Assembly: GCF_044704955.1 (NCBI RefSeq)
Contig: NC_091999.1
Coordinates: forward strand, 31,434,001 to 31,498,000
Direction: 5' to 3'
DNA length: 64,000 nucleotides
From: Pristiophorus japonicus
Lineage: Eukaryota
Part shown: positions 41,417 through 64,000 of the stretch, piece by piece
Layout of the letters: every line of letters starts with the position of its first letter
How positions within the stretch are numbered: position 1 is the stretch's first letter
Made by a program: the position numbers and the translations under genes
The notes under the pieces: generated by a model
The model's input: only the letters and a program-made list of their open reading frames with translations
The model's database searches: none
What the model was told of the DNA's origin: nothing

Positions 41417-41839
41417 ATCCCTGCATTGTGCCTCACTGATTTTCAATTGAATATGATTTCTGATGTGACTCGTAATGTACTTCCACGGTTTTAAGGACTG
41501 TTGAGATAGTGTCCACTTGATCCTGAGACATAGCGTCACATCCAGCAACAAGCAAAGGAGATGAAGGTCGGTCTGATTCAGACTGGATGGGGAAGTTGTT
41601 TACATTCTTTAATTACAGTGTGCCAAATGTACATTTATCAAGTGTCAGTACACCCTGCGGTTTCCATCTCCTGACCCTCGCCCCTCTCCTGCATTATGTT
41701 ATTGCAGACCCCGCTCGCCAGTCCCACCATGCAGTGTATTACATGGCAGTACAAAATGAGATTTCCATAACTTGATTTTGAAAGTGTATCTTTTCCACAC
41801 ACACAAATCGAACTGCAAACAGCGCTCAACATTATAGTT

Positions 41840-42096
41840 ACCGATCTACCGAGCTATCTGTCTATCCTATCAATATCTATATTTCAATCTGTCTCTATAT
41901 CTATAGATTCTTCTAGCCCTTTCTGTCTATCTGTCTAACTATCTATCTGTTAGTCTGTCTGTCAGTCTGTCTATCAGTCTGTCTGTAGGTATATCTGTCT
42001 ATCTATCTATATATTTATCAGTCGATCTATGTAACTATCAATCTATTCGGCTGTCTGTCTATCTTTCTATCTGCCTATCTGGCAGATTATCCCACT
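41840..42096. repeat. (TCTA/TCTG)n microsatellite
   Basis: Seen directly. Confidence 0.9.
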
Positions 42097-42258
42097 NNNN
42101 NNNNNNNNNNNNNNNNNNNNNNNNNNNNNNNNNNNNNNNNNNNNNNNNNNNNNNNNNNNNNNNNNNNNNNNNNNNNNNNNNNNNNNNNNNNNNNNNNNNN
42201 NNNNNNNNNNNNNNNNNNNNNNNNNNNNNNNNNNNNNNNNNNNNNNNNNNNNNNNNNN
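42097..42258. other. Assembly gap (162 N)
   Basis: Run of N. Confidence 1.
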
Positions 42259-42294
42259 GAATTTATCTCTTTTTCAATATCTTGATTCGTTTAT

Positions 42295-42480
42295 AATTGT
42301 AGCGCCCCCTACTGCTTTCTTAATTTTTTAACGCATGGAATGTCATGTTCTTTAATAATTGTTGCGCCCCCTGCTGCCCTCTGACTGATTTGCCGCAAGA
42401 CAAACGACGCTCTGTACAAATTTAGCACCGCCTACTGCCATCTGACAGATTTAGTGCAAGAGAACGGACACTCTACAAAC
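42295..42480. repeat. About 60-bp tandem units carrying CTCF-like cores; continues at 44636-44780
   Basis: GCGCCCCCTACTGC (42302), GCGCCCCCTGCTGC (42364) and GCACCGCCTACTGC (42425); related units at 44642 and 44701. Confidence 0.6.
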
Positions 42481-42489
42481 AAAGATACG

Positions 42490-44590
42490 AGCATACATAC
42501 AATGATGGAAAGGTTAAGACCATCTGGTCCATTGAGCCTGTCCCACGCCGCCCGAAACGATGTGATCTCCTGGAAGTAGCAAAAATCTGATTAAAAACCC
42601 AGGCCAATTTGGGGGAAGAAATTTGGCAAATTCTTCTCTGATCCATCTAGGTGATCGAAACTGGTCCAAGTGATCACTCTGGCCTTGAATTCCCTGCAGT
42701 ACATACCTTCTGTAACATGTGATCTCTACCGCAGCCAGAAACAAATCCAGCTTTCACTTGAGGAATTCAGTGAGTCTGCATTCATTACATGAAATGACAG
42801 ATTGTACAATGGTCTACTATCTTCTGGGAAAAGATCCACCTCCTGACATCTAACCTAGATCTAGTCCTATACAACTGAAATATGTGATACCTGGTCCTAC
42901 CTAACCTATTTAATTGAAATAAACTATCGACTGGAAAACCTTCTATTTCCTTCATTATTTTAAAAACCTCAATCAGATCCCCCCTAAGTCTATGCTGATC
43001 TAAGGAATTGAGTTCCAACTCTTTCAACCTATCTTGGTAATTAAAATGCTTTATACTTGGAAATAGCCTAGTGACCCTCTTGTTCTCCTTTTCAGAGCGT
43101 CAATATCACCTATCATGTGAGGAGGACAAAACTGGACACAGTATTCAAAGCTCGGTCTGACTAAGGCCTTGTTCAAGGACAAAACAGTACACGTCCTATT
43201 ATAATCAAATGTCCTTTGGATACACCCCGATGCCTTATGTGCTGTAACTATCACTGCACAGCATTGCTCATGTACCTTTAAGGATCTATGTACTAGAATG
43301 CGCAATTCTATTTCTATCTGCGCCAAATTTAATACCTTTCCCTGGAGGGTGTAAGAATGTGAACATTTGCCCTACCCACATGCATAAATATGCACTTATC
43401 TAAGTTGTACATCATTTTCCAGACTTGAGCATAATCTACCAGCACATTCAGATCTGCCTGAAGCAGTCGAGCATCTGCTATAATTCAAAATCTCACTCAG
43501 ATCTTGGTATCATCTGCAAATTTAAAAGTTTTGCGCGCAATCCCAAAATCTAGATCATTAATACAAATAGTAAAACACAATAGTCCCAACACTGTCCGCT
43601 GCCAGACACCACGGGTGACTAGTCTACAATCAGATTCAAATCCATCAATTATTACTTTTTACCAGTGTCCTGCCAGCCAGTTCTGAATCCAACTCAATAT
43701 ATTTCAACGTTTACCAGAGGCTCCGATCTTATACAAAAGCCTTTTGTGCGGTACTTTTTCAAAATGTTTTGGGAAATCAGAGTAGACAATGTCTGCTGGG
43801 CTTCCCTGATCCACAAACTTCGTAACTGTTTCAAAAAATACAATTAGATTTGTGAGATATTACCTCTTTTGTATGAAGTCATATTGGTATGCCTAAAATG
43901 TCCCTCCCTATCCAATATTCTTAAATCCCTTATGGTTGCTTCAAACATCTTACCTATTACTGATGTTAAACTGATGGGCCTATAGTTGCCCGGGTCTGTC
44001 TTGTCACCTATTTCAAAAATGGGGTCTGCATTAGTCTCCTTCCAATCTGTGGGAAACATTCAAGAGAGCAGTGAGCTATTAAAAATACAGGCCAGGAGCT
44101 CTCACAGCTCATGTCCTATCTCACAGAGGACCATCAGGCGGATATCATCCAGCACGGATGCTCTATCTATTTTCAAGTTCTTAATTATTTTTACCCTAAC
44201 GTTTTTCTCTTTGGTAATGCTGCTAACAAAATTAGTAGAATTAAATTCTAATATTCGAGCATCATTTTCAAGGGTGAAGACTGATGGAAAGTACAAATGT
44301 AATATTTCCACCATTCTTAGTGAATCCTTTGCAACCTGCCCTTGAACACCCTTCAGTGGACCAATACAGTCTTTGATAAGTCTCTGATTCACCACGTAAA
44401 GAAAAATGCTGATCCCATTACTGCCACAGTTGTCTACAAACCATTAGTCCATTAGTGTTTGATGATATAATAGCAGCCATCATTTTCTTTAGCTGTTTCC
44501 TGGATTCAACCCTGTTTATTTGAGTATTACATGTTTTAATTGATAATAAAAACGTTTCTGTTTACATCTTATTTGTCTGTCTAGTTTTAC
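42490..44590 (-). mobile_element. CR1-type LINE, 5'-truncated
   Basis: DPGNYRPISLTSVIGK, KFADDTK, RPSFEYCVQF and RLRGDLIEVFKI. Confidence 0.92.
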
Positions 44591-44809
44591 CATCCCGATT
44601 ATTGATTTATCGGATGATGAGGGATGTGGTTTATAATATTAGCACCCCTTCTGCCGTTTGACGGTTTGCTGCAGAACAAGGGGTGCTCTGTCCAATGGTA
44701 GCACCACCTACTACCCTATGACTGCTTTATTGCAGGATGAGAGACAAAAGTTATCATTAGATCGCAACAACTGCTTTCTCCCACTGAGATAATTTGGGTC
44801 CAATTAAGG

Positions 44810-45105
44810 AACATAACAAACATTAGAAATAGGAGCAGGAGTAGGCCCTATGCCTCTCGAGCCTGCTCTGCCATTCAATAAATTCATGATTGATCATCGA
44901 ACTCAACTACACTTTCCTGCACAATCTTTATATCCACAGATTCCCCATAGATTCCAAAAATCTATCTGCCTCAGTCTTGAATATATTCAGAGATATGATG
45001 CCGAGAATTCAAAAGATTCAGAACCCTCTGAGTGAAGAAAATCCTCCTCATCTCGATCCTAAATGGGCTTCCCCTTATCCTGAGACTGTGTCCCATAGTT
45101 CTAGA
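44810..45105 (-). mobile_element. CR1 3' fragment
   Basis: agaaataggagcaggagtaggcc-type 3' end in reverse. Confidence 0.8.
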
Positions 45106-45449
45106 GAAAACACCAGGAATTGAACTCGGACCTCCATGCTGTGTATGGTTTTATGGCATCTTCGAATGTCCAGATGGAGATTTTCATTTTATTTTTCTTA
45201 GAAAGATACGGAAGTCTTTTTTCCCCTTCCACATGGTGCAATATTCATTGGAAGCTATTCTAATGTAGAAAAGGTGAGCTCGAAATTGGCTGCCTTAATT
45301 TGTTTGTTTCAATGACCAGAGCTAACAATAAAATTGCACAATCTGATTGGCTCACTAGGGATTAACATTCGGTATAACTAAGGGATAATTAGAATGAGCC
45401 ACAACTCATGTTGGAGCTACTGTCTCCAGCAATTCTTTTCTCACTGAGA

Positions 45450-45545
45450 ATGCACGCCCCTGGAAACAGTCCAATACTTGCCATTTACTATCCGCTTCTC
45501 GCTGCTGTCATTGCAAGTCATTACAGCAAGTCATTGGTTGTTAAG
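45450..45545 (+). pseudogene. GPR139-like pseudogene, exon 1 (damaged 3' end)
   Basis: MHAPGNSPILAIYYPLLAAVI is paralogous to IYYPLLTAVGVP of exon 1 at 5956-6052; followed by triplicated GTCATT. Confidence 0.7.
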
Positions 45546-46581
45546 GTTTCTGCTGATATTCTGCGTCTTTACAGTTTTGACATTTTGTGTTTCGAGATTT
45601 TGCTTCACAGCCGCTTTGTTCATTGTGTTCTAATGAAAGATCACTGATCTGATGCATTAACTCATTTTCTCTTTCCACAGATGTTGCTTGATCTTCCAGA
45701 TTTTCTGTTCTCATTTCAAATCTCCCTGAGTCAGAGTATGTGTCTTTTGTATCCCTGTTCATTGTGAAATTTTATTGGAATTGTAAAGTTCCCCGGTGTA
45801 CAAAGCAAAATTTATTACAACATCATTCTGCATCAGCGTGACTTCTTGTCCCAGATCTATATTCGCACTGCCTTCAGCTAACAATCTCTGTTCAAGTCCA
45901 AAAGTCGTTATTTTTAAAAAGTAAAAATCGTGTGACTAATGAAAAAATATGAAGTGAACCGATGCAACAATGATCGGTCAATAATGTGTATCTTGATATG
46001 TATTTCCCGCCACTTTTCATCAGTGCAGTTAATTCTGGTGATCAAGCACTGTTTCACAAATGCTGTCTATGGACAAATGTCCAGAAATGATGCCTGTAAA
46101 TGTTTATTAAAATGCATCTATTTCTGAATATTGCGTTGAAACGATACGAAAATCAGCTGTGTAGTTGATAATGAAGAATAAAGGTGCGGACAGCAGGAAA
46201 ATGTCTATCAACGGGTCAGGTGGGCAGAACAGTGGCAAATTGAATTTAATCCAGAGGTTTGTGAGGTAATGCATTTGGGGAAGGCTGACAAGGAAAGGGA
46301 ATACACATTAAATGGTACACTGAGAAGTGTAGAGGGACAAAGAGACGTTGGAGTGCATATCCACAGAACTCTTTTTTTGGGAGAAAATTAACACATGAAA
46401 TCAGTAAATCGTGCCCCCCCCGATCTGGGGGGCGCACCAACATTTCAAAGCACTTTTTTTTTTTCGTAAGTTTTTTTTTGGGCACTAAAATCTTTTTTTT
46501 TCTCCAAGTGCCCCCTATAAAAGGGGAGGGGGACACTAAAAACACCGGCAATTGAAACAAATTAAACTTTAAAATATAAAA

Positions 46582-49500
46582 TCAAATTAAAATTTGGTTG
46601 CCGGGCGTGACGATGCACTCCAGTCCCTCCGGCGCCCACCTCTCGTGGAAGGCCACGAGCGTACCAGTGGACATCGCATGCTCCATCTCCAATGACAGCC
46701 TGGACCGGATGTATGCGCGGAAGAGAGGCAGGCAGTCAGGTTGTACGACCCCCTCGACCGCACACTGCCTGGACCGGTTGATGGCACCCTTGGCCGTGCC
46801 CAGGAGCAGTCCTACGAGGAGGCCCTCGGACCTACCCGCTCCCCTCCGCACAGGGTGCCCAAAGATCAGGAGTGTGGAACTGAAGTGCAGCCAGAATTTC
46901 AGGAGCAGACCCTTTAAATAATATAAAAGGGGCTGCAACCTCGCGCATTCCATAAAAACATGGAACACGGACTCTTCCAGACCGCAGAAATTGCAGGCGG
47001 ACTGCGAGCCCGTGAACTGGTTTAAAAATTTATTGCACGGGACTGCTCCGTGCACCACCCTCCAGGCCAAATCCCCGATAAATACTGGAAGGACTCCCGC
47101 GTCGAGTGCCCTCTATTGGTGACCCCCGCCTCCTCCGGACGGCAAGATGGTACGCCATGGCGTGTCCGGATGGCAGATGAGGATGGCAAGGTTGAGAGTG
47201 TGCAGGAGCAGCCCGTACAGGAAACCCCTCCGCACGGAACTGAAAGGCACGGAGGGGATTTCCTCGAGGCAGCTCAAGTTGTGAGGCGCCGGCTCCCGAG
47301 GGAGGTTCCGGGGTTTGGCGCCGATGAGGAATTCCGTCCGGACGTGGGTCAGTTCGGACGGGATCTCCCCACGTGCTTGAGCCTCCTCGATGCACCTAAT
47401 GGAGTCAGGGTCCAGAGCTGTTTTTAGCGACTCAATGGCATTGGCCGCGTGGCGGACGTTGGTGGAATTTAGGCGCCACGCCAGCATGTCTGGCGCCATC
47501 CAGCCCGCTCCTTCGCCATCGAGCAGGTTCCTAACCCTGGTCACCTCACCAGCCACAGCCCTCTCGTCCGACCGCCACCTAAAACCTCGGTCGTGGAGGT
47601 ACGGATTCCCGAGCAGCGGCTCCTGCAGGACGGCCGCCACTCCAGCCAGTGGAGAGCTGCGCTTGGTGGAGACTTTGTTCCAGACCGTGGTGAGTTCCTT
47701 GTAAAAGACAGGCAGCTCCTGGAAGGCGGTCCTGACGCCCCCCAAGCTCACAAACAGGAGCTGCGTGTCGTAGTTGAGGCCGTGCTGCTGGCGGAAGAAA
47801 TACGTCGCCAGAGCACGCCACCTAGGAGGGGGCTCGACGAAAAGGTATCTCTGCAGGGTCTGAAGACGGAAAGTCGCGAGCTGGGTGCTGACGCACACCA
47901 ACGACTGACCGCCCTCCCCAAGCAGGAGACTCAAGACCGCGGCAGAGACCCAGTGCTTCCTGTTGTTCCAGAAGAAATCCACCAGCTTCTTCTGTATCTT
48001 GGTGACAAACGCAGGGGGAGGGGTCAAAGTGGCCAGCCGGTACCACAACATGACTAGCGCTCGACCCCTGTAGGACAGCACTCGGAGCAGTACTGTCCAG
48101 CGCCCTAGGCGAGCTGCGAACTTGGCCTCCAGCTCTTGCCAGTTCGCTGGCCAGGATTCCTCCTCGGGGCTAAGGTAGACTCCCAGATAGAGGAGATGGG
48201 TCGTGCTCCAGGCAAAAGGCCTGAGCTCCTCCGGCAGGGAGTCCACCCGCCAATGACCAACCAGGAGTCCGGAACATTTCCCCCAGTTGATGCTGGCGGA
48301 GGATGCGGCCGAGTAAATCTCCCGGCACTCACGCATCCTCCGCAGGTCAGCGGGATCCTCTACCGCGAGGAGCACGTCATCGGCGTAAGCCGAGAGGACG
48401 ACCTGCACGCCCGGCCCTTGCAGAGCCAGTCCCGTCAACCTCGTCCGCAGGAGGCGCAGGAAAGGCTCCACGCTGATGGCATAGAAATGGCAGGACATGG
48501 GGCATCCCTGGCGCATCCCTCTCCCAAAGCCAAGGGGCGCCGTCAAGAACCCGTTTACCTTTATCAGACACTCTGCAGCGGCGTGCAAAAGTCGGATCCG
48601 GGCGACGAAATGCGTCCCGAACCCGAAAGCGCGCAGAGTCCCGAACAGGTAGTCGTGATCCACCCTGTCGAACGCCTTATCTTGGTCGAGAGATAGGAAG
48701 GCGACCGACAGACCAGCCTCCTGGGAATGATGGATGAGGTCCCGGACCAGATGGATATTATCGTGAATTGTCCGGCCAGATACCGTGTAGGACTGGTCGG
48801 GGTGGATCATGAGGTCCAGCACGGCGCCAAGGCGAGCAGACATCGCCCTGGCGAAGATTTTGTAGTCCGTGCTGAGGAGGGAGACTGGGCGCCAGTTCTT
48901 AAGGAGGCGGAGATCACCCTTCTTAGGCAGCAGGACGATGACTGCCCTGCGCCAAGAGAGGGGCATCTCCCCGGTCGCCAGACTTTCCCCCAGGACCCGC
49001 GCATAGTCGCCCCCCAGGACGTCCCAGAATGCCCTGTGGAGCTCCACGGTCAGCCCGTCCAGCCCCGGGGCTTTTCTCCTCGAGAGCCGGGCGAGGGTGC
49101 CGGTCAGCTCCGCCAAGCTTAGCGGAGCTTCCAGATTTTCGGCGCCCTCCGGGCTGACCTTCGGCAGGTCCTCCCACAAAACTCTACGCGCTTCATCGCT
49201 GGACAGCTCCGGAGAAAACAGAGCCCCATAATATTCACGGGCCGTGTTGTTGACGCCCTCCGGATCCGAGACGCGAGAGCCGTCGTCGGCCAGCAGCGTC
49301 AAGAGCTGCTGACGGACACTCTGCCTTTTTTCCAGAGAGTCGAAGAAGGGCGAGCCACGGTCCAGATCCCGCAGGAACCGGATCCGCGACCTCACGAACG
49401 CGCCTCGGGACCCGACGAGCTGCATGTCCTTCAGCGCGGCCTTCTTCACTTCGTACACCATCGGCAGTCCGGGTCCTCGACGTCTTGACCGAGACGGGAC

Positions 49501-50443
49501 TTTTTTTCTAGGCGCCCGACTCTGGCCGCCCGCCTCTAGGTCGACCTCCTTGCGTACTCTTGACAGAAGACGCGGACGTGAGCCTTGCCCACGTCCCACC
49601 ACAGCCTCAAGGAGGGGAAGCCCCCCTGCTTCCTCCTACAGTCGGCCCAGAAACGACGGAACGAGTCCTGGAACCGCACGTCCTCCAGCAGCTGGTTGTT
49701 AAAATGCCAGTACGTGGACCCCGTCCTCGCACGGAGCGAAGCGAGCTCCGCCCACACCAAGTGGTGGTCCGAACACAGCACCGGTCGCATGGAGGCCGCC
49801 GGGACGCAGAAACGTACGCCCGAGACACGTAAAGGCGGTCGACTCTGGACCATCCCACTCCAGGGATCACCCAAGTAAAGGCGCTGGAGTCGGGATGGAG
49901 ATTTCGCCAGACGTCCACCAAGTCGAAGGACCCGACCAGGTCCCTCAACTTCTCCATCGCCGTCATGCTCTGCGGGGCACCGGAGTGGTCCCTCGCCGAG
50001 AGGGTGCAGTTAAAATCCCCCCCGAGGACAATGCAGTCACCGACGTCGACGGAGCCAAGTAGAGCGGACACCTCTTCGAAGAAGCGCGTCTGCTGCGGTC
50101 CGGGCTGAGGGGCGTACACGTTCACGAGATGGAGCGGCACGTCCCCCAGGCGAACCGTGACGTGCAGCAAGCGGCCTGACATGGGCTCTTAGACCACCAA
50201 GATCTCCGGCTGAAAATGCGGGGCCAACAAGATGGCCACCCGACAAGAAGTGGTAGTGAGGTGGCTCATGCGGACCTCTCCTTGCCATTCTAGGAGCCAC
50301 GTGGCTTCGTCTCCTGGAACGGTGTGTGTTTCTTGCAGGAAGCACACCGCATATTTCCCCTCACGCAGGAGCGAAAAATTGTTAAATCAACGGTGTGCCC
50401 CTCTGCTGCCATTGATGTTGAGGCTGGCTATGGTTATCTTCAT
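46582..50443 (-). pseudogene. Tx1 ORF2 (APE endonuclease, RT, C-terminal zinc finger), disrupted
   Basis: MKITIASLNING, FLQETH, NVYAP, GGDFNC, SDHH, KNWRPVSLL, LDQDKAFDRVDH, RQGCPMS, YADD and CNFCGLEESVFHVFMEC; several stops and frameshifts. Confidence 0.93.
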
Positions 50444-50468
50444 GACAAAAGCATAATGCAACCTCTAC

Positions 50469-52587
50469 CTAACCTATTGTGGGGGGGGGGGGAGTGGAGT
50501 ACTTTGTTGACCTCCACTCCTTCAGCAGCCCAGCGAGGAACTTTTTGAGCCGGCGCAGCTCAAGGCCTTGCGCCTTTGATAAGGGCCCGCACGCGACCAT
50601 GGTTTTAGTGGCGACGCGGACGGAAGCGATGAGCAATCCCGGCTCGGACCATCTTTCACGGGCCAGATGGGCTTGGTCGCGGCGACCCTGGCTCTGGACC
50701 AAAAAGTCCCGGAGTTCCTCTAGGGGAATGAGGGGGGACTCAGCGGCGGGCACGAGGAGATCCACCGCCTCACTGGCGATGGACTCGAGATCTACACCCG
50801 CGTCCTCCACCGAGTCCCCGTCCCCCTCCGGGTGGTCGCCGCTAGCAGCCGGCCCGTGGACCGCACGAGGTACGGCAAACGGCCCACCGCTCCATCCGGC
50901 CCTGGCTCTGCCCCGATCCCACCCCCAGGATCGTCGACAGAGGAGTCTCCACTGGGCTCTGTTAAAAGTGGTGCTGGGTCAGGAAGTGACAGCGGAAGGG
51001 GATCCTCCCCCTCCCCAGGAACCGGGGAACACGGAGAGACCTGGCCAAAGTAATGTTCCAGGTCCTCCAAGTACCCCAGCTTCAAAGTCGGGGGCGAGGG
51101 TTGTTGTACTTCCCCCTCCCCAACGCCACCCCCCGGCCCAGCGTGTACAGATTCATAAAAATTGTTGATACTGTGTATTTCCGCCGAGTCGAGCAAGTCC
51201 CGGGGGATGTTGGATATTGGCTGGGCGGGCTCAGGTTCGGCATTTTCGGCCCCGCCCACCTCAGTCCCCGGGACGCTCGACCCGGCGGCAATGAATTCCA
51301 CCGCTGGCCCCACGCCCCCCACGACAGGCAGATCTTCCACGCCATCACCGGGAGGCAGAGGCTGGGCAGCCTCGACTGTCTCACCCTCCCCGGGGACAGA
51401 TTCCTCCTGCCTACGGCGCAGTTTGGAGGCGCTCGTGGGGGACGCGGGACACGTGGCAGGCACTGACTCCTCCACGGAGGGATGTTGTTCCCCCTCCGCC
51501 TCATTGGAGCGGCGCCTCCTTTTGTTCCTGGTTGAGCGCGGAGGCAGGGAGACCTCCATGTCTGCCGACGCCTCCCGCTCCACCCCCCTCCTTTTTCTTT
51601 TCTTGCCCGCGCCCGAGCCCCTCTGTGATACTGGTGAAGGGCTTGGGCATGGGCTCAGGGCACCCCGCGCTCGCCGATGTCAGGGTTGGGCTGAGCGCGG
51701 TGTTCAAGCTGTCTGGCGCACTGAGGGGACCCGCCTCGAGATGCTTTGCCTTCCTCCGCACCTTCTTTCCGATCGGACGCTCTCCCTCTCCCCCCGCTGG
51801 AGGCATTGAAAACAAAGGCCCCCGACGATGACCGCGCACCCACAGCTCCCGGCACGCGGACGCTACTAGGGGGAGTGGTGGCGGCGGCGCCAGCCTTGGC
51901 CGCCTTCGGTGGTTTGGCGGCTTTGGAGGCGGAACAGTTCTTGCGAACGTGCCCCACCTCGCTGCAGGCATGGCACCGCACGCCGTCCGACGTCCAAAAG
52001 ACGCGGTAGGCTGTCCCCTCGTGCACCACATTAAAATTGCCCTCCATCGTCTCCTCCCGCGCCAGCCGGACAAAGAGCTGGCGGCGGAAGGAGAACACAT
52101 GGCGCAGGCTGTTCTCCCTGAGGCCGAGCGGTATGGGGTTGATCCCCGACCTTACATCCCCTAGTTGGTGTAGGTGAGGGAGGAGGAGCTCAGCGAGAAC
52201 AAAGGGCGGGACTTTTGAAATGATGACCCTCTGCGCGGTGGCCTCGAGAGGGTCCACCGGCAGGAACGTCCCGCCTACCGTGAGCCCCTTTTCGAGGGCC
52301 AGGGACACCGGCCGCTCTGACCCCATGAAGGACACGGCCTTCCCAGACATCTTGGAGGCTGCGACAATGGCCGAGGGGCCGACTACCCCAGCCATCGCCC
52401 GCACGCACTCTTCAATGCTCATTGTGGGGTGAGTGTAGCTCTTGACCCCGTGTTTTTTTGTTATCAGAATGAATGGTGGCAGGGCAGCAGGAGGCGCAGG
52501 AGGCGCAGGAGGCACCGTGGATGTGGACGCCGCCTGCGCATATGTCCTAGCTGGCCCTGCCACCAGCGTGGATGGGGTCGCCATCAC
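50469..52587 (-). pseudogene. Tx1 ORF1 (RRM-like region plus CCHC knuckle), frameshifted
   Basis: VGPSAIVAASKM, RVIISKVPPF, HVFSFRRQLF and CHACSEVGHVRKNC; continues through frames 51501-52100, 50792-51583 and 50469-50810. Confidence 0.88.
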
Positions 52588-54593
52588 GGGGTCCCTTTAA
52601 GGGCTACATCCACCCCAAAGTCACAGGCCTTAATAGTCTTTAATTGGCCTCGTTGGTGTTTTGAGCAGAGGGAGCTCTAAAAGAGTCACACCTCTCCTCT
52701 AGTTACCGAATGGGGAGGGGCCTTGCTCTCTCTGCTCAGTTGTCTTAATTGTTTTATAATTAGGAGCAAAGGGCTCTCAGAGAGAGAGGGGAGAGACAGA
52801 GAGAGAGAGAGAAAGAGCGAGGGGGGTATGAAAGAGGGTAGCTGCGAGGGCAGGTCTCCCCTCACAGTGATGGGTGGGTGTTTCTTGGGGTACACTCCCC
52901 AGATGGCAAAAAACACAGTCTTTGTAGAATGGTCTTCGGGTGGGGGGAGAAGATGTCTTCACCTGGGTTAGCTGGAGCCACCCAGGCACACACTCCCAAC
53001 GATGTTTAATAGGGTAATTAGTACTACTTCAGCCAGGTAGCTCCAGCTATCCCAGGCTAGGCAATGAGGGAGGTGTGATTCAGTGGTGTGTGGGGCCTAG
53101 CTGTAAGCAAGACCCCCACACACACTTCCACACACACACACCCGCCGCGATGTTCCGGCCCTCGAAATGTCTTCTTTCCTCCCCCCACCGATACAACAAA
53201 GTCTTTCGGGGAATGCACCAAAACACACCCACCTGTCGAAGATTGTCGAAATGGCTCTCCCTCCTTCCACACTGGATGGTGTTTTCTCAGGATGTTCTTT
53301 TCACCCTCTCTCCAACTCTCTGTAGTAGCAATAAATGACACATTTTCTGCTCTCCTCCTCTCCCTCTGGACCTTGAATTGTAGTAAGCCAGCCCTCTCCT
53401 TCTCTTCCTGGGCTGGTCTCAGGGTTCACTCTCGGCCTTCCAGACAGGAGCTTCAGCAGGGAATTCCTTCTCTCACAGCAGCAATGCTCCAACTGATTAG
53501 GCCACGCCTCCAAAGCTCCACCATTGGTCCACAGATTCCCTGAAAGTAACAGGCCAGGTGGATAAGGTGATTAATAAGGCATAATTAAAGCTTGCATTTA
53601 TTAGCCGCGGCATAAAATACAAGAGCAGGGGGGGCTTATGCTTCAACTGTATAAAACACTGGTTTGGCCACAGCTGAAATATTGCGTGCAGTTCTGGTCA
53701 CCGCATTGCAGGAAGGAGATGATTGAACTGGAGATTTACGAGCATGTTGCCGGTAGTGGGGAATATTAGCCACGAGGACAGATTGGATAGTCTGGATTTG
53801 TTTTTCTTGGAACAGAGGGGAAACTTCATTGAGGTGTATAAAGTTATGACGGGCCGAGATATAGTGGATAGAAAGGGTCTATTGCCATTAGCAGAGGGAT
53901 CAACAACCAGGATACATCAATTTAAAATAATTATTAAAAGTTTTAAAGGGGATTTGAGGGGAATTTCTTCATGCAGTGTTGTGGTGGTCTGGAACTCACT
54001 GCCTGAAAGGATGGTGGAGGCAGAACCCCTCACCACATTTAAAAAGTACCTGGATATGCAACATATGTGCCATAACCTGCAGGATTACAGACCTAGAGCT
54101 GGAACGTGTGATTAAGCTGGATAGCCTCTTGTTGGTCGAGGGCCTTAAATGGCCTCCTTCCGTGCTGTAAACTTCTATGACTCTATTAGTCTATATGATC
54201 GAATTTCTGAACTGATTTAATGATTGCATGATTGAAGTGTGATTTTAGCCATGCATTTAATGAAGGGATATTCTGCGTCAGTAAATGGTTGACAATCAGT
54301 GAACGATAAACAGTTTTAGTCACGAAGTTGCACCTAAAACTCCATGGCCTGTTCTCAGTGTCCTGCTCCTCATTCATTGCTTCAGTCCGCCCTCGCTCCT
54401 TCACATTCGCTGTTCCCGCTTCCCTTCCTCAAACACTATTCAAATCTTAACAGATCAATCTCTGCCGACAGGTAACTGAATAATTCCCATTGCGAGGTGA
54501 AGTATCTAAGACTGAAATATGATCAAAATAAATAAACATCAAGGAGGAGTGATACATAATGTTACTGATTTCTTTTCTGTCTCTTTCTTGCAG

Positions 54594-55503
54594 CTAACTT
54601 GGTGACAATTGTGATCCTGTCCCGAGGAAAGTGCGGTCTTTCCAGATGTATCACTTGGTACCTGCTGTCCATGGCAGTGGCAGATCTCCTGGTCATTATC
54701 ACCGCTGTGATATTAAACCGGATCAGTGGAATTTATCTTCAATTTGGTCTGCTGTCCACCACTCCAGGCTGTACTATAATATCTATCCTAATTTATGTCG
54801 CCACGGATAGTTCCGTCTGGTTAACGGTCGCTTTCACCTTCGATCGATTTGTGGCCATATGATGCCAGAAACTGAAACAAAATATTGCACTGAGAAAAAT
54901 GCGGCTCTGATTATAGTCATGGTCGGTTCCCTGAGCTGTTTAAAAAACATTCCTTCTTATCTCACATATGAGCCTATGTTCATAACTGACAATGTCCCGT
55001 GGTTATGTAACATCAAAGTAATATTTTATACTTCTCCTCTATGGATAGTATATGACTGGCTTGACAGAATTTTAACGCCATGACTCCCCTTTCTCCTGAT
55101 ATTGCTGCTCAATGCTCTGACCGTCAGACATATTCTAGCGACCAGCAGAGCCCGCAGGAGGCTCCGGGCCCATAGCAGTGGAGAGAATCAAAGTGACCTA
55201 GAGATGGAGAGACGGAGAAAGTCCATCGTTTTACTCTTTACCATCTCAGGCAGTTTCATCCTATTATGGACAGTGTACGTTGTAAATTTCTTGTATGTCC
55301 GAATTACAAAGAATAATTATTTCTCAGGTTCCAATTTCAAAGACCCAAAATGTATTTTCCAAGAAACCGGAAATAGTCTTCAGCTTTTGAGTTCCTGCAC
55401 AAACACGTGTATTTATGCAGTGATCCAGAGTAAATTCAGAGAGGAGTTAATGGATGCGCTGAAATATCCAATGAATCTCTTTATAAAATTAATCAAATTA
55501 TAA
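54594..55503 (+). pseudogene. GPR139-like pseudogene, exon 2
   Basis: Acceptor tctttcttgcag|CTAAC; NLVTIVILSRGKCGLS...FTFDRFVAI*, a 1-nt deletion in KLKTKYC, LTP*LPF, then CTNTCIYA. Confidence 0.92.
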
Positions 55504-56079
55504 AAATGTATTTTCGTGTTAATTCTGCATTATATCACACCCAGTGGGCCATCCTGTCCTGTCAGTTCTGAACCAGCTTTGTCCAGCTCCATCAGCCCCA
55601 ATAACATGGCCCATCTCGACATCCAAGTCTGAGAAATCGAATATCTCGACATCCTCATGCGCGATATCGTATATCTTGACATTCATGTGTGAGAAATCGT
55701 ACAATTGATTTGCGTGTAATTAAGATTATATTTTAATCAGAGGGCCTTATTTCAGTACTGCCGGCGGTTTGTTTCCTCAGAGTAGTATTATCATACGAAT
55801 GCTAGCAGATACTTTTCCATTCTATTGAGCTCTCATGAATCACCATCGGCTCACTGCATTACAACAGTGACTACACTTTCAAAAAGTATTTCACTGGCTG
55901 TAAAGCGCTTTGAGACGTCCACGCGTTGTGAAAGGTGCTATATAAATCCAGTACTTTCTTTATTTCCTTGTTAGAGTCAGGATTATGCGACTATGTGACA
56001 ACCAGTTGTTATCCTGTAGAGACCGCTCTGAATAACCTTGATTCATAACTCTCAGGAATATTGCGAGTGGTGGATCATG

Positions 56080-57442
56080 GCAGCAGTCTCTGTGATCCTG
56101 CGAAAAATAGAGACAAAATTAACAGTCACTTGGACAAGTATGGATTAATTAAAGGAAGCCAGTATGCAGTTGTTAAAGGTAAATGGTGTTTAAATAACTT
56201 GATTGAGTATTTTTACATTGGTAACAGAGAAGGTAGATGAGGACAATGCGGTTGATGTGGTATACATGGACTTACAAAAGGCATTTGTCGAAGTGCCAGC
56301 TAGTACGTTTGCCTGCAAAGTAGAAGCCCATAGAGTAAAAGGGAAAGTGACAGCATGGGTACCAAATATGCTGAATGACAGGAAAGAGGGATTAGTGATG
56401 AATGGTATATGTTTCTGACTGGAAGCTGTTTTTCAGGTATCAGTGTTACCCAGGGGTCTTTATCAGGAACGTTGCTTTTCTTGATATATATTGACGAATT
56501 GGACTTGGGTGTACATGTCTCAATTGAAAAATTTACAGACGGCACAAAACTAAGAAGTATGCTGAACATTGACGCGGACAGTGATAGACTTCAAAAGGGG
56601 ACCGCAGGCTGGCGGAATTAGCGGACCCGTGGCAGATGAAATCCAGTGCAGAAAAGTGTGAAGTGTAACATTTTGGTAGTAAGAACGAGGAGAAGCAGTA
56701 TAAATTAAAGGGTACAATCCTAAAGGGGGTGCATGAACAGAGAGACCTGGGATACACGTTCACAAATCGTTGAGAGTGGCAGGTTGAGAAAGCAGTTAAA
56801 ATAACAATCGCCATCCTGGGCTTCATAAATAGCGGCATAGCGTACCAAAGCATGGAAGTTAAGATAATCCTCTATAAAACGTTCGTTCGTGCTCAACTGG
56901 AGTGTTGTATCCAATGCTGTGCATCACACTTTAGGAAGGATGTGAAGGCCTTCGAGAGAGTGCAGAAAAATTAGAAGAATGGTTCCAGGGATGAGGGATT
57001 TCATCTACGTGCATAGACTGGAGAAGCTGGAATTGTTCTCTGGAGCAGTGAACCTTGAGAGGACATTTGATAGAGGTATTCAAAATCATGAGGGTTCTGG
57101 ACAGAAAAGACAGGGTGAAACTCTTCTCATTGGCGGAAGGTTCGAGAACAAGAGGACACAGATTTAAGTGGACTGGCAAAAGAACCAAAGGCGACTTGAG
57201 GAATAACTTTTTTATGCAGCGAGTGGTTATGATCTGGAAAGCACTGCCTGAAAGGATGGTGGTGGCAAGTTGAATGGTGGTTTTCAAAAGGATGTTGGAT
57301 AGCTACCTAAAGCGGAAAAATGCAGGGCTATGGGGAAAAGGTGCGGAGTGGGAATAGCTGAGGTGCTCTTGCAGAGTGCGGACAGGGGCTCCACAGGCCG
57401 AAATGTATCCATTTATGCTGTAACCCAATCTATGATTCTATG
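56080..57442 (+). mobile_element. CR1 LINE 3' portion
   Basis: VDVVYMDLQKAF, KFTDGTKL and RGHLIEVFKIM; tail ctatgattctatga. Confidence 0.9.
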
Positions 57443-58314
57443 ATCCTGCACCAGCCACAATATAATGATATGATGGTACGATATGGGCGCTATTACAATG
57501 TCACCAACAACACCTTAAAATTGAAATTCTATTTCCCATTGCAAGCTGCTATACTCAGTAAAGTGAGCAACTGTTTGGCAGGGAGGTATAACAGAAAGTA
57601 AAGAAGCATTGCATGCAATTCTTTTCCTGGTAAAAGGCACCAAATTCTTTAATTGGGTAACAGCATTTGTATAGGATTGACGAATCGCCACGATGTAGTT
57701 ACTCTCCTCCCTCTCATGTGAATTTGGCGCATCACTCAGAATGCCACTCAGTAACAATAAAGGAGGAGTTACACAGATTTTGGAGGAGCATTGCTCTGCG
57801 TAGTATTTCTGAATGGTAATTCAAGCCTCCCTCCCAACTGCACCTCACTTGTTCAAAATAAGAAAATATTCGGGGATGCAATTTAACCATTCAACGTTAT
57901 GAATATTGCAAAAGAAGAAATTGGAATCAGTAAATAGAGTGAACGAGAGAAAGTGTGAGAGAGGAGAGAAAGATTGAAATGGAGAAAGAACAAGAAGCGT
58001 AAGAGAACAAAATAAGGTAATAGTAAAAGAAAGCAAAAATGACAGAAACCAAGAAATGTTTAACTTGGTGATTGTCCTTCTATACCCGCTGTTTCTCTTA
58101 GATGTTTGTATCTATTCTCGAGATATGGGCGTAGATGGCAAGGCCGGAATTTATTGTGCATTACTGGCTGCCCTTGAAAAAGTGTTGGTGGGCTTTCTCC
58201 TTGCACCGCTGCAGTCCATGTGGTGAATGTGATGTCACGTAGGAAGTTCCAGTATTTCAACCCATGGACAATAAAGTAACAACGATAAATGAAAATTCCG
58301 GATGGTGCTTGACA

Positions 58315-58970
58315 TATAGAATCACACAATAATACAGCATTGATGGAGGTCGTCTGACCAATCTTGTCTGTGCTCGCTCTGTGAAAGAACCTTCTCCAAA
58401 CTACTCCTTCCATTAACCCCGCTGTGTTTTGGTCGACACGAATACGCTTCTTCTTATGATTTGCTGTAAAGAGACTTGCAGCATGATTCAAGGGGAATTG
58501 GAGCATTGCTGCGGGACAACGGTCCCGTACGTAGAATGATACAACACCTAAGGACGCCGTTACGATCCTTTGTGCCTCCTCTTTGCAAGAGCTGTTCAAT
58601 TAGTCCCACACCTTTGCATTCCGCCATAGAACTGTTCGTTTATTCGTTCAAGTGTTTACACAATTCGATTTTGAACGTTGCTACTGACTCTGCTTCCTCC
58701 CCCTTTTCAGGCTCTGCATTGCGGATCAAAGCAACTCGCCTGGTAAAATAATGTTTCCTCGTGTCATCTGTGGTTCCTTTCCCAATTACCTTAAATCTTT
58801 GTCCTTTGGTTACCGACCCTTCTGCTAGTGGAAACAGTTTCCATAATTTAATCTCTCAAAACTCTTCATAATTTTGAACAACTCTATTAAATCTCTTCTT
58901 AACCTTCTCTGTTTTAATGAGATCAATGCCAGCTTCTCCAGTCCCTCCACAGAATCCCCTCATCCCTGTT
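58315..58970 (-). mobile_element. CR1 3' fragments
   Basis: Reverse CR1 3' ends with typical wording; fragmented. Confidence 0.65.
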
Positions 58971-59288
58971 ATGAAAAAAAATTAAACATGTTGTTTTAAA
59001 AGTTCCCTCAATTACAGATATTGCTTTATCGAATCGCTCGATGACAGATATCTTCTTGGTTTGGTCTGTGGTTTCCCTGGAATTTTTTACATAGTCGATC
59101 AGTTTGAAGCACCGTGATTCTCAGTCAACAGAAATAGACGGCGCTGTATTCATTTTCTGCTACAAAAATTGACAAAGGAAAAATTAATATTCATTTAAAT
59201 GACGAGCATCGAATTTTCCTCTTGCAAAATCGGCACCAATTTCCCTGGTGTTATTGCGGTATAAGGTAAACTGCGTTGCCGGGATCAG

Positions 59289-59669
59289 GTGCAGGCGTAC
59301 CAGTAATGATCTGGATCTTCGGAACTGGTGTTGTAAGTACATTTATTTCAGCTTTATCTCCTTCATATACCGTCATCTCATATTGAGGCTGCATTACCGA
59401 ACTCCATTGGATTTTACCTGTAAAACTTATTTAAATCATCATTTAATGTCCTTCTTAATTAGCATAATTTAAACCAGCGCAGGCAACACTTACCACAACC
59501 TACCTGCTACCGAGATTATTCTGGTGAAATACATCGGCTATTATGAAGGTAATATATTTTGCCAGAGACGTTTCTCTGCAGATCTCTAAATTGTGACAAA
59601 GTTTACCAGTTTAACCATCTCTGGGCTGCAGATGACCGAACCTGCAATTTTTTAACGTGCCCTGGGGCT
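59289..59669 (+). pseudogene. TCR alpha/delta-type V pseudogene (leader remnant plus FR3)
   Basis: The frame from 59521 reads RRFSADL*IVTKFTSLTISGLQMTEPAIF*RALG, a decayed RFS...SLTISGLQ.TDSAIYYCAL. Leader-like MIWIFGTGV|gtaagt at 59306-59338. The 5' part of the V exon is unrecognisable. Confidence 0.78.
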
Positions 59670-59708
59670 CACAGTGATGGAACTCAGTTCAACCCTCGTA
59701 CAGAACCT
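59670..59708 (+). promoter_or_regulatory. 23-bp-spacer recombination signal sequence
   Basis: Perfect CACAGTG (59670-59676), exactly 23 nt spacer, then ACAGAACCT (6/9 to ACAAAAACC), directly after the V end. Confidence 0.8.
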
Positions 59709-60384
59709 CCCGCCACTTTGTAGATCTTGGCTCCGACTGCTGAAGTCGTATATAACGGCGGGCAGATCCTGCCACATTGGTTCCTGTGAGCCGACACATA
59801 CTGAGATGGACCCAAAGGACAGTCTCCTGTATGAAGGGCTCACAATAAACTGATTTCTTGATACTCGGGGAAATGTCCTGCAGAGCCAATCAATTGGGCA
59901 GGTTGAGTATCTTAGCGACATACACGAAGCATAAGCCAACTGGTTGCAGCTAAAGTTAATTGTGAGAACAGAATGACAACATTCGCTGGCATCACCTCGG
60001 ATCTAGAATCAGAATATTAAGCCTGTGCTGGCACTTTGAAAGAGCTATTCTATTAGTCCCACTCTTTTCTGAAAGCCCTGCAATTTTCTCCCTTTAGATA
60101 TTTAACTAATTCCCTTTTGAAAGTTAATATTAAGTCTTTCCCCCCACTCTTTCACGTAGTATATTCCTGATCATAACTGCATCAATAAATTCGGCCCTTT
60201 TCACCTCAGGCTCCTTTTCCAATTTGCTTAAATCAGAAATCAAACATCAGGAAATATATGTGTCCCTGGTACTAACTTCAACTGAGTTGCGTACCTGGAT
60301 TCCGTGGATGACGCCATAATTCCTCGCATACATCATAGCACAGTGATTGGCTGTTTCTTCGAAGGTTACTGCCGTATCCGTAGG

Positions 60385-60660
60385 ATTTGTTCACTGATTT
60401 CACGTTGATAGTATCAGAAGGAATGGCGCAGAGCAGGAAGACAGGATCTCCAGGGTGATGTTCAGTGAGTTCAGCGAGATGGTATCAAAGGGAATGAAGC
60501 AGAGCAGGGAGGCAGGATCCCTAGGAAGATGTTCAGTGAGTTCAGGGAGATGGTATCAGAAGGAATGGAGCAGAGCAGTGAGAACAAATCCGTGGTTGAT
60601 GTTCAGTGAGTTAAGCGAGATGGTATCAGAGGGAATAGTGCAGAGCAGACAGAAAGGCAG
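60385..60660. repeat. Minisatellite, about 70 bp unit, about 4 copies
   Basis: gttcagtgagttcagcgagatggtatcagaaggaatgg repeated at about 60388, 60460, 60531 and 60601. Confidence 0.8.
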
Positions 60661-60685
60661 TCCGGGGAAGAGGTGACAGCGGGTC

Positions 60686-61505
60686 GTGTTTAATGTGAGA
60701 TCATGCACTTTGGCAGAAAAAAATCAAAGAGCCAGTTATTATTTAAATGGAAAAATATTGCAAAGTGCCACAGTTCAGCGGGACCTGGAGGTACTTGTGC
60801 ATGAAACACAAAAGGATGATATGCAGGTACAGCGAGTGATCAGGAAGGCCATTGGTATCTTGGCCATTATTGTGAAGGGGATGGAGTATAAAAGCAGGGA
60901 AGTCTTGCTACAGTTATACAGGATATTGGGGAGGCCACAGCTGGAACTGTGTGCGGTTTTGGTTTACATATTTATGAAAGGATATACTTGCTTTGGAGGC
61001 AGTTCAGAGAAGGTTCACTCGGATGATTCCGGAGATGACGGTGTTGACTTATGAGGAAAGGTTGAGTAGTTTGGGCCTCGACTCATTGGAATTCAGATCA
61101 ATGAGATGTGATCTTATCGAAATGTATCAGATTATGAGGGGGCTTGACAAGGTGGATGCAGAGAGGATGTTTGCACTGATGGGGGAGATTAGAATTAGAG
61201 GGCATGATCTTAAAATATGGGGCCGCCCAATTAAAAAAGAGATGAGGAGAAATTTCCTCTCTAAGAGGGTTGTAAATCTGTGGACTTCGCTGCCTCAGAG
61301 AGCCGTGGAAGCAGGGACATTGAATAACCATATGATAGAAATAGACAGTTTTTTAAACGATAAGGGGCTATGGGGAGCATGCAGGAAAGTGGAGCTCAGG
61401 ACATTATCATATCAGCCATGATATTATTGAATGGCGGAGCAGGCTCGAGATGCAGTATGGCCTACTCCTGTTCCAATTTCTTATATTCTTATGTTTTTAT
61501 GTATG
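60686..61505 (+). mobile_element. CR1 3' fragment
   Basis: QRDLEVLVH and EAVQRRFTRMIP; 3' tail. Confidence 0.92.
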
Positions 61506-61934
61506 TTCCTCATAAAGGAGAACGGCTGGCAGTGATTACCGTACTCATTTCTGTCTGTGTGGACCATATGCATTCAGGTCACCTTTAAAGAGTTGAATCG
61601 AAAACAAAACTTACATTCTACGAATGCCCTCCCAGAGAGGAGGATGTCAATCGTATACTTGGGCAGAACAAAACGACAATGATTTTACATCAGAAATTGA
61701 TATTGCCCGTGCATCACACATTCTGTATGTAGGTGCCCAACGGGCACAAAGCTCCAAATGTACCTGCAGATGCCGCGTGAACCCTCATCTCCTCTCTGTC
61801 AAAAAGAGTCTCTCCACCTGTCGTCTCTTTCTTGGCTTTCTGTATGTATATAACAGAAACATTGGAGCGCCTGTCTGTGTGTCAGTTAGGCCCCAGTCTT
61901 TGGGAATCATTCCAAGAGTTTGTGCTCCCTAGTG

Positions 61935-62250
61935 TGTCTGGAAGTGTTTGATGGGACAGTATCGAGTGAGCTTTAATCTGTATTTAACCCGTGCTGCTCC
62001 TGCCCTGGGTGTGTTTGATGGGACGGTGTAGAGGGAGATTTATTCTATATTAAACCCGTGCTGTACCTGCCCTGGGAGGGTGTGGAGTGCAAGTGTAGAT
62101 GGAGCTGTTCTCTGTATCTAACCCGTACTGCACCTGCCCTGGGAGTTTTGATGGGACAGTGCAGAGGGAGCTTTACTCTGTATCTAACCCGTGTTGTACC
62201 TGCCCTAAGAGTGTTTGTTCGGACAGTAGAGGGAGATTTGCTCTGACGCA
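61935..62250. repeat. Minisatellite, about 67 bp unit, about 5 copies
   Basis: gggagtgtttgatgggacagtgtagagggagctttactctgtatctaacccgtgctgtacctgccct-like unit. Confidence 0.9.
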
Positions 62251-63021
62251 TACTATACTGTGTCGGACTTTGGTGCATCAGAGGCCTGCTCTTTAATATA
62301 ACCTGGCACGTGAAAGACCATAATATTAGAGGAGACCGCCTGGTTGCTGTGCAGTCATTCCGCCTCTGGTGCATGATGCAACAAGACAGGGGAAAATGTG
62401 CCTTCACTCTGATGGGACACTAGGTGGCGCAGTGGCTCCTTAACCGAAGGGACTTGGATTCAAACACAAACAGGATAGGACGCGGGAAGAATACATTTCA
62501 TGTAAATAAAACAACATGTGATAGGGAAATAGAACATGTGAAGGAGCCTTGAAGTAAGGAGTTCAGCAAAGTCCAATTTATTCCATTTGCCATTGCAGTT
62601 TTATTAACAATTTCACAGAGAACAATTTACAGAGAAGGTTTTCAAAAGTTCACACAAATTGAATATAACAAATGAGCGTCACATTAATACCAGAACACAG
62701 TCGGTCTGAGCTGCCAGCTATCTGTACAACTCTAACAGACATCAGGGAGCGAGAAACAGATGTTCAACACCAAGGGAAGGGAATAATTGTGAATCATGAA
62801 TGATAAAAGTGACTTATGTACACATGAGATATTCAAACAATTGTTTAACTCCGAGATACATTTACATTATAGCCACGGTTATCTCACACATTTCAAACAG
62901 AGAAATGAAAAATTGAAGGCAATTGACTCCGGGAATCACCAAGAGGACATAATTTATTTTCAGGACACAGTGATGTGAACAACCAGAGGAGAAAAATCCA
63001 CGGCGGCCGAAATTCAGTCAA

Positions 63022-63030
63022 TCACTTGAC
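63022..63030 (-). CDS. IGHM: IgM membrane exon TM2 (VK*)
   Basis: ccctcttttacag|GTC AAG TGA; AATAAA signals downstream at 62605-62600 and 62582-62577. Confidence 0.88.
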   Translation of the reverse strand, partial: VK

Positions 63031-63168
63031 CTGTAAAAGAGGGATAAAAGTTTGAAGCAGCGTTTTAGTGATTTGGCGCATTAATTTCAGGGTTGTTATC
63101 AATGAAACATTTAGAGATTTGTCAAACCTCTTCAATCAACTCGAACTGAGTGCATTGAATCTTCTCAC

Positions 63169-63296
63169 CTTCATCAGAGTGATGGCAGCGCTGTAAAAAA
63201 TGCTCAGGAAGAACAAGATGATGAATGTGGAAGCGGTTGTCCAGATGTTGCTGCTCTCGTCCTCACACTCTTCACTCCAGATGTGGTCTGAGGAAT
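63169..63296 (-). CDS. IGHM: IgM membrane exon TM1 (rest of the gene lies beyond the window)
   Basis: cccgtag|(D)[42 protein letters not shown]|gtgag. Conserved Ig TM motif, open frame and canonical splice sites. Confidence 0.93.
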
Positions 63297-64000
63297 CTAC
63301 GGGATGTAGGGAAGGAAATATATTCAGATCGTTTGTTAATCCAAGATCTCATCTTATTATTACGTATTCTATTTTCTTTTTTTAAGGTGTTAGTTTGTTC
63401 TCTATTTTAATGTTCAATGTATGCCCTGTGTTAAGTTAATCACGCTCACTAATCTATCTGTGTTCCTAATTCCACAGTCGTTCCTTCTTTATGATCCTTC
63501 TATAGTCGGTTTTGGAAAATATGACAGTTTTCCTTCAATGTTACAGGCTAATTGATTTTGCATCAATTCCATAGGATTTACCATTCGGGAATAGTATGAT
63601 GTAATATCGAGGGAACTATACTGAATGATATCGATTAATTTAACAATAGCTTCAGATAGCTAATTATTCGGAGGCTGTCAAAGGGACAGGGTAAGACATC
63701 AGATGTGAGTTATAATCTGGATTAATTTGTGGTAGTCAAGGTTCTGAACATAATTAATTTGCATGAGTTTCCAACTAAGAACTTTGATTCAGTTTGTGTG
63801 CAGGACCAGAATATAGGAATGTAAGATATTATGGTATCAGAAATGATTTATTTAATACAATCGTTGCAGACTGTCTGTTCAAAGAATTTATTTTAATTCT
63901 ATGTTCGTCTGTTACCTGACGTATTTTTTGCACTTTAGTGTTTGTGTATGTGTGTATGACGATCTCTTCTTTTGGTGTTGTCTGTGTTTGTGTGTTGATG

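What the first reader, a model, noticed from the sequence alone, without database searches (positions are those of the whole stretch)
59289..63296. TCR alpha/delta-type V segment with 23-RSS only 3.3 kb from IgM membrane exons
Seen: a V FR3 remnant ending (YYC)ALG directly followed by heptamer-23-nonamer on +, converging on intact IgM TM1/TM2 on -. The ORF track misses it entirely. Known: shark IgH genes are clustered mini-loci, and sharks use Ig-type V domains on TCR delta chains. Inference: this region interleaves TCR V segments with whole IgM clusters, the physical arrangement that would allow cis Ig/TCR chimeric rearrangement. This copy is dead, but it may mark a repeating IgM + TCR-V unit.
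Basis: partly seen in the sequence, partly recalled or inferred. Interest (0 to 1): 0.75.

Follow-up and report, generated by a model that had tools for sequence, protein, structure and literature searches.

The report
Dead TCR-V/IgM relic copied twenty times
A broken half of a shark T-cell-receptor variable gene lies 3.3 kb behind an equally broken IgM antibody gene, and the pair recurs 20 times in this genome, likely because it was copied, already dead, inside a large duplicated block of the known mixed antibody/T-cell-receptor chromosome, so it is likely an ordinary relic rather than a hybrid-receptor device.

Summary
Observation confirmed: a TCR alpha/delta-family V remnant (59510-59669) with a 23-RSS (59670-59708) faces IgM TM1/TM2, 3.3 kb away. 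A second, missed V pseudo-exon lies back to back on the minus strand (59417-59117). The predicted repeating unit exists: 20 copies at 94-100% identity (16 on this contig), each with an IgM TM about 3.4 kb away. But all 20 share the same 5' deletion, two stops and loss of Cys104. The IgM is dead too: CH1 is broken in 19 of 19 copies seen, and VH/JH are missing in 17 of 19. The pair rides in a 45-80 kb segmental duplication. None of 19 other IgM TMs sampled has a TCR V within about 9.5 kb downstream. The real TCR delta D-J-C, with its own Ig-type Vs 9-12 kb upstream, lies 21.8 Mb away. TCR V exons and pseudogenes between IgH clusters are already published (PMC12227049, text and Table S1). This scan noted two sister copies earlier with the same reading. 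Verdict: ordinary pseudogene passenger; a live chimera role is not supported. Interest 0.17.

The parts
59510..59669 (+). V-A: 3' half (mid-FR2 to FR3) of a TCR alpha/delta V pseudogene; leader, FR1, CDR1 and Trp41 deleted; TAA at 59587 and 59653; Cys104 codon changed to Arg
59670..59708 (+). 23-RSS of V-A (CACAGTG, 23 nt, ACAGAACCT)
59117..59417 (-).
59080..59116 (-). decayed RSS of V-B (heptamer CACGGTG at 59116-59110, poor nonamer)
59505..59512 (.). deletion junction joining the upstream flank of V-B to mid-FR2 of V-A; the same junction in 20 of 20 copies
59709..60095 (+). 3' flank homologous to the flank of TCR V genes L027/L028 in the true TCR array; the array-derived DNA ends about here
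63169..63296 (-). IgM TM1 exon (open, GT donor); its CH4-CH1 exons lie 2-7 kb beyond the window end (C23:31500129-31504793)
63022..63030 (-). IgM TM2 exon (V-K-stop)
26387..64000 (.). part of the segmental duplication that carries the pair; collinear at 93-96% with the copies at C23:23.1 and 58.3 Mb and running on beyond the window
23057..24665 (-). a further IgM relic (CH3 open, CH4 broken, no TM found), outside the shared duplicated block

Best explanation
This is a pair of dead TCR alpha/delta V genes next to a dead IgM constant locus, which likely arose once where an IgM minicluster sat among TCR V genes and was then likely copied as inert cargo in a 45-80 kb segmental duplication spread along the antigen-receptor chromosome. 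Steps. (1, shown) V-A and V-B belong to two families that stand back to back 5 times of 5 examined in the real TCR V array at C23:10.1-11.1 Mb, an array that also holds orphan IgM TM exons. (2, shown) One deletion removed the promoter, leader and 5' half of V-A, and stops and loss of Cys104 are shared by all 20 copies; CH1 of the IgM is broken in all 19 copies seen. (3, inferred from the shared lesions and the trees) Death preceded amplification. (4, shown) The block now stands 16 times on C23 between 17 and 64 Mb and 4 times on three unplaced contigs, several as mirror pairs. (5, inferred) It does nothing; the RSS survives only because too little divergence has built up to erase it.
For: 20 hits at 94-100% over the V region. 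The 20 best TM hits lie next to those 20, tail to tail. Same junction, TAA in FR3 and TAA-CGT in place of Tyr-Cys in 20 of 20 (alignment). The 20 TMs form one clade (SH-aLRT 100) whose sister family on other contigs has no V. CH1 stop plus deletion in 19 of 19; J-less upstream path in 17 of 19; the 2 VH-bearing copies have a stop before Cys104. Collinearity: about 45 kb with the 23.1 Mb copy, about 56 kb with the 58.3 Mb copy, about 80 kb between those two. V-A groups with L027/L028 and the 5 back-to-back partners (100/99); V-B groups with intact V L057 (95). Variable columns among copies: V remnant 20 of 160, heptamer 0 of 7, spacer 4 of 23, nonamer 2 of 9, flank 25 of 261, so no excess conservation of the RSS. 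Published parallel: 'TCRadV', 'TCRadV pseudo', 'IgM pseudo?' and 'IgM (missing V)' are interleaved on white shark chr27 (PMC12227049 Table S1).
Against: The heptamer is perfect in 20 of 20 copies while the nearest intact relative L027 has a poor one; with 7 sites this is within chance. TM1/TM2 and CH2 stay open in many copies. A second IgM subfamily in the same block has its own convergent V of another family 3.7 kb after TM, and the nearest V downstream of all 4 orphan TMs in the TCR array is also convergent. That is more regular than a single accident, though several of these share ancestry. The direct source locus (V-B/V-A joined to this IgM family in intact form) was not found in the roughly 0.47 Mb of the 2 Mb TCR array that I fetched as stretches. 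Only 19 of the other TM exons were checked downstream; the exact 17-mer alone finds 67 TMs in the genome.
Confidence: 0.87

Rival explanations
1. Fossil of a working device: a TCR V placed 3' of IgM C in inverted orientation, like TRDV3 behind C-delta in mammals (recalled), once joined by inversion to the cluster's 12-RSS D(J) to give TCR-V/IgM-C chains.
For: The geometry fits the 12/23 rule: the 2 copies that keep VH-DJ have a 12-RSS before a D-J pointing the same way as the V-A 23-RSS. Convergent V-to-TM pairs are seen for two IgM subfamilies and 4 orphan TMs.
Against: No copy is intact on either side. 0 of 19 other IgM TMs, including the subfamily whose 43.84 Mb member has open CH1-CH4 exons, have such a V. 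The chimeras described in the passages read are Ig V on TCR D-J-C, not the reverse. TCR V genes in the array face both ways, so convergence is expected half the time, and the cases reduce to 3-4 independent ones.
Confidence: 0.06
2. The surviving 23-RSSs, though non-coding, act as RAG targets that promote inversions and duplications, and so helped the block spread.
For: Perfect heptamer in 20 of 20; many mirror-image copies; a second RSS-like site (22 spacer) in the CH3-CH4 intron of many copies.
Against: The block ends found lie tens of kb from the RSS; the RSS and both flanks are copied intact, with no signal or coding joint. No excess conservation. Mirror duplications span megabases and include TMs without a V.
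Confidence: 0.04
3. Part or all of the repetition is an assembly artefact (haplotigs or false duplications).
For: C1724 is 100% identical to the 61.6 Mb copy over 9,238 bases; mirror pairs are 99.7-99.96% alike.
Against: Other copies differ by 1-6% with their own indels. Contigs of two DNA runs (one sample, possibly the assembly's own source) cover 30 of 30 bins of 59000-60700, bridge the V-B/V-A junction and show the paralogous variants. An artefact can lower the count, not remove the unit.
Confidence: 0.03

Closest known systems
TCR alpha/delta V exons between IgH clusters in the elasmobranch antigen-receptor complex (AgRC), Flajnik et al. 2025, PMC12227049 (abstract, introduction, first results sections, passages and all of Table S1 read; PDF supplement not opened)
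   Same: TCR alpha/delta locus and IgM clusters on one chromosome; TCR-type V exons and V pseudogenes next to pseudo or V-less IgM loci megabases from the TCR C genes.
   Different: Here one dead V pair plus dead IgM was amplified about 20-fold over 47 Mb in a segmental duplication. The parts of that paper I read do not describe such a unit or give V-to-TM spacing.
Ig-V/TCR-delta chimeras and TAILV (Criscitiello 2010, Deiss 2019, Ott 2021: not held; known to me from passages in PMC12227049 and PMC5931798 and from recall)
   Same: Physical mixing of Ig and TCR segments on the same chromosome.
   Different: Those use an Ig-type V on TCR D-J-C. Here the V is TCR-type, dead, and 21.8 Mb from D-delta. 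The Ig-type Vs next to D-delta are at C23:9.746-9.750 Mb.
NARTCR supporting V-delta
   Same: A TCR delta-locus V found near IgM loci in white shark Table S1.
   Different: Neither window V groups with supporting V-delta or NAR V; true NARTCR cassettes lie at C23:10.11-10.12 and 10.20-10.21 Mb.
Orphon/pseudogene V segments carried in segmental duplications, as for human IGKV and IGHV orphons (recalled, no call)
   Same: Dead V genes with surviving RSS copied away from their locus within large duplications.
   Different: Intrachromosomal, and paired with a dead constant locus of the other receptor class.

Membership tests
TCR alpha/delta V segment (V-A) | sequence groups with TCR alpha/delta V rather than VH, VL, TRBV or NAR V | tested here: met
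   Best BLASTP hit own intact V L027, 52% over 52 aa, E 1e-12; VL E 1.6; VH, NAR V and supporting V-delta rows gave no hit among 83 rows. Protein tree is a quick search with weak support (85-89) because V-A fills 44% of columns. DNA tree of 17 TCR V rows places it in the L027 subfamily, 100/99.
TCR alpha/delta V segment (V-A) | 3' RSS with 23-nt spacer | tested here: met
functional TCR alpha/delta V gene | split leader, Cys23, Trp41, Cys104, open frame | tested here: not met
   5' half deleted, two TAA, Cys104 codon now Arg, in 20 of 20 copies
TAILV | IgH-like V sequence | tested here: not met
TAILV | own D segment(s) with RSS behind the V (recalled) | tested here: inconclusive
   the 3' flank is conserved across the V family, and one relative (L029) has an inverted RSS-like site there; in the window it is decayed and no D can be read
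NARTCR supporting V-delta | groups with supporting V-delta and has NAR V-D-J upstream | tested here: not met
IgM heavy-chain locus | four C exons plus TM1/TM2 in order, matching shark membrane heavy chain | tested here: met
   [quoted passage not shown] IgNAR and IgW reference sequences were not compared.
functional IgM minicluster | VH-D-JH present and C exons open | tested here: not met
   CH1 broken 19 of 19; J-less 17 of 19; VH stop in the other 2; window copy also frameshifted at the CH3 start and lacks the tailpiece Cys
Elasmobranch AgRC (PMC12227049) | IgH clusters linked to TCR alpha/delta C genes | tested here: met
   C with J and D upstream (delta) at C23:9.72 Mb and a second TCR C at 9.58 Mb; 42 exact IgH TM matches on C23
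Elasmobranch AgRC (PMC12227049) | linkage to PSMB5, UrIg2, IgW and IgNAR | not tested
   not searched

The most novel reading that the evidence does not exclude
Shark IgM clusters embedded in the TCR V array could capture an inverted TCR alpha/delta V lying 3' of their C exons by RAG inversion to a 12-RSS D-J, making TCR-V/IgM-C antibodies, the mirror image of the known Ig-V/TCR-delta chains; the 20 amplified units and the orphan TMs in the TCR array would be fossils of that route.
Probability: 0.05. Interest if true: 0.7.

Novelty: new member of a known kind. Interest (0 to 1): 0.17.

Why it matters
As it stands it adds a detail to a published picture: it shows how Ig/TCR interleaving spreads in a shark, by segmental duplication of dead mixed blocks, and warns that counts of IgM clusters and TCR V genes on this chromosome are inflated by copies of one relic. 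It would matter more only if TCR-V/IgM-C joints were found in lymphocytes, which would make Ig-TCR exchange two-way.

Tried and rejected
IgNAR identity of the C exons: my first guess from recall, dropped when four C domains matched P0002 in order with JH directly upstream. PDB sequence searches gave only generic mammalian Ig hits and did not discriminate. A leader exon at 59289-59340: rejected, it is the antisense of V-B. V-B as NARTCR supporting V-delta: rejected, its intact relatives have leaders and it groups elsewhere. Same origin for the V behind the second IgM subfamily: rejected, it belongs to the L030 family. Expression: no RNA holder listed; two runs of unknown kind covered only a repeat; no conclusion drawn. 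One of 20 TM control regions (43.84 Mb) was fetched on the upstream side by my misreading and left out of the count, hence 19. The careful protein tree did not finish; the quick tree is reported. Literature searches: searches found no paper on an amplified TCR-V+IgM block, but key subscription papers are not held and the PDF supplement of PMC12227049 was not opened, so absence from print is not shown.

Full report
Observation. The window is G000:C23:31434001-31498000. At 59510-59669 (+) lies the 3' half of a V exon, followed at 59670 by CACAGTG, 23 nt and ACAGAACCT. IgM-type TM1 (63296-63169) and TM2 (63030-63022) lie on the minus strand with proper splice sites, 3.3 kb from the RSS. An RSS of this quality occurs 3 times in the window against 0.39 expected; only this one abuts V homology. 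The start of the reported interval is not part of the + gene: 59417-59117 is a second, frameshifted V exon (V-B) on the minus strand with a decayed RSS. A deletion at about 59510 fuses the upstream flank of V-B to the middle of FR2 of V-A.

What the Vs are. V-A's best match among 83 V domains is an intact V of the same genome at C23:11.49 Mb (52% over 52 aa, E 1e-12); VL scores E 1.6, and VH, NAR V and supporting V-delta give no hit. V-B's best match is the intact, leader-bearing V at 9.92 Mb (50%, E 9e-26). In a quick protein tree both fall among conventional TCR alpha/delta V, apart from VH, VL, TRBV, NAR V and supporting V-delta; support for V-A's place is modest because it is half a domain. 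Named homologues of the intact relative include TCR alpha/delta variable genes. A DNA tree puts V-A in one clade (100/99) with L027, L028 and the five Vs that stand back to back with V-B-family pseudogenes in the real array (positions). So the V-B/V-A pair is a known building block of this animal's TCR V array.

What the Ig is. Beyond the window end lie CH4, CH3, CH2 and CH1, matching the horn shark membrane heavy chain P0002 domain by domain. CH1 has a deletion and stops, CH3 is frameshifted at its start, and the secretory tail ends NSYQ where an open relative at 43.84 Mb ends NSCQ. No JH or VH was detected in the 100 kb fetched beyond the window. It is an IgM pseudogene with intact TM exons. 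A gene model from a sawshark (P0003) matches even non-exonic parts of these loci, consistent with a shark.

The unit repeats. The V region has 20 copies at 94-100%: 16 on C23 between 17.5 and 64.0 Mb and 4 on three unplaced contigs (a lower bound, 40 of 47 candidates scored). The 20 best TM matches lie beside those 20 in the same tail-to-tail layout. All 20 share the deletion junction, the FR3 stop and the stop-Arg in place of Tyr-Cys104. CH1 is broken in 19 of 19 copies where it was in view; 17 of 19 share a J-less upstream path; 2 keep VH and a D-J behind a 12-RSS, and their VH has a stop. V-B is present in 15 of 20. The 20 TMs are one clade, sister to an IgM family on other contigs that has no V behind it. 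Copies are collinear over 45-80 kb. Some are near-identical mirror pairs or possible haplotigs, so the number of independent duplications is below 20. Independent contigs of one DNA sample bridge the V-B/V-A junction and show the paralogous variants.

Control. Of 20 other IgH TM regions fetched, 19 covered the downstream side, and 0 of 19 had a TCR V within about 9.5 kb. The pairing is therefore not a general feature of IgM clusters. Against a purely one-off reading: a second IgM subfamily 56-64 kb away in the same block has its own convergent V pseudogene, of another family, 3.7 kb after TM (2 of 2 copies examined), and four orphan IgM TMs inside the true TCR array (10.136, 10.154, 11.118, 11.456 Mb) each have a convergent V as nearest downstream V. 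These show that IgM loci were once embedded among TCR Vs, which explains the origin; they reduce to three or four independent cases, too few to call the orientation non-random.

Where real cis mixing lies. A TCR C exon with nine J hits, a 12/23 D, and two VH-type segments 9-12 kb upstream of D is at C23:9.72-9.75 Mb; a second TCR C is at 9.58 Mb. That is the substrate for the known Ig-V/TCR-delta chimeras, 21.8 Mb from this window.

Mechanism. Shown: shared lesions, one clade, large collinear blocks, source families in the TCR array. Inferred: one junction between TCR-array DNA and an IgM locus, decay of both, then spread by segmental and inverted duplication. The RSS varies no less than its flanks, so no selection on it is seen, with low power. 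I put 0.87 on this reading.

Known work. PMC12227049 states that some V exons of TCR alpha/delta type lie between IgH clusters, and its Table S1 lists TCR V genes and pseudogenes beside pseudo and V-less IgM loci on white shark chr27. PMC5931798 (passages) describes chimeras as IgM/IgW V on TCR D-J-C. Deiss 2019, Ott 2021 and Criscitiello 2010 were not held. Earlier notes of this scan on two sister copies reached the same reading; my reading was set before that look-up, and those notes are not independent support.

Verdict. Real, repeated, dead, and an instance of a published arrangement. What I did not see in the papers read is the 20-fold amplification of one mixed block. Interest 0.17. The bold reading, inversional TCR-V/IgM-C joining in an intact ancestor, fits the geometry but has no intact example or transcript: probability 0.05.

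Noticed in passing
G000:C23, centres near 27.754 Mb and 49.212 Mb: Megabase-scale mirror duplications: copies at 25.9/29.6, 48.0/50.4 and 48.2/50.2 Mb are inverted pairs 99.7-99.96% alike over 16-20 kb, symmetric about fixed centres, each with an IgH TM within 10 kb of the centre. Real palindromes or assembly fold-backs.
   Followed up: partly
window 23696 (-) and the CH3-CH4 intron of many copies: An RSS-like site (perfect heptamer, 22 spacer, nonamer with 2-3 mismatches) inside the IgM CH3-CH4 intron of this pseudogene family; the anchor was not found in the open IgM at 43.84 Mb.
   Followed up: partly
G000:C23:23119172-23119988 and C3770:406506-407322: VH-23RSS followed by a 12-RSS directly before a D-like stretch fused to JH, suggesting a germline D-J join.
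   Followed up: partly
G000:C23:10136310, 10153952, 11118085, 11456445: Orphan IgM TM exons (one with a broken CH4) inside the TCR alpha/delta V array, plus a remnant of IgM 3' flank at 10161485.
   Followed up: partly
G000:C23:10114279-10119795 and 10198562-10209924: Two NARTCR cassettes (NAR V, D RSSs, supporting V-delta), both showing lesions.
   Followed up: no
window 3215-4180 (-): Open 321-aa single-exon rhodopsin-family GPCR frame (PF00001, E 1e-15).
   Followed up: no
window 47113-49635 (-) and 12740-13318 (-): Retroelement frames: an 840-aa reverse transcriptase ORF in an insertion absent from the 23.1 and 58.3 Mb copies, and an RNase H/integrase zinc-binding fragment.
   Followed up: no
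window 59709-59800 and L029: The 3' flank behind the RSS is conserved across this V family; in L029 it holds an inverted 23-RSS-like site about 70 nt past the nonamer.
   Followed up: partly
G000:C23:5500284-5500517: A V-B-family V pseudogene on the far side of the TCR C genes, about 4 Mb from them.
   Followed up: no
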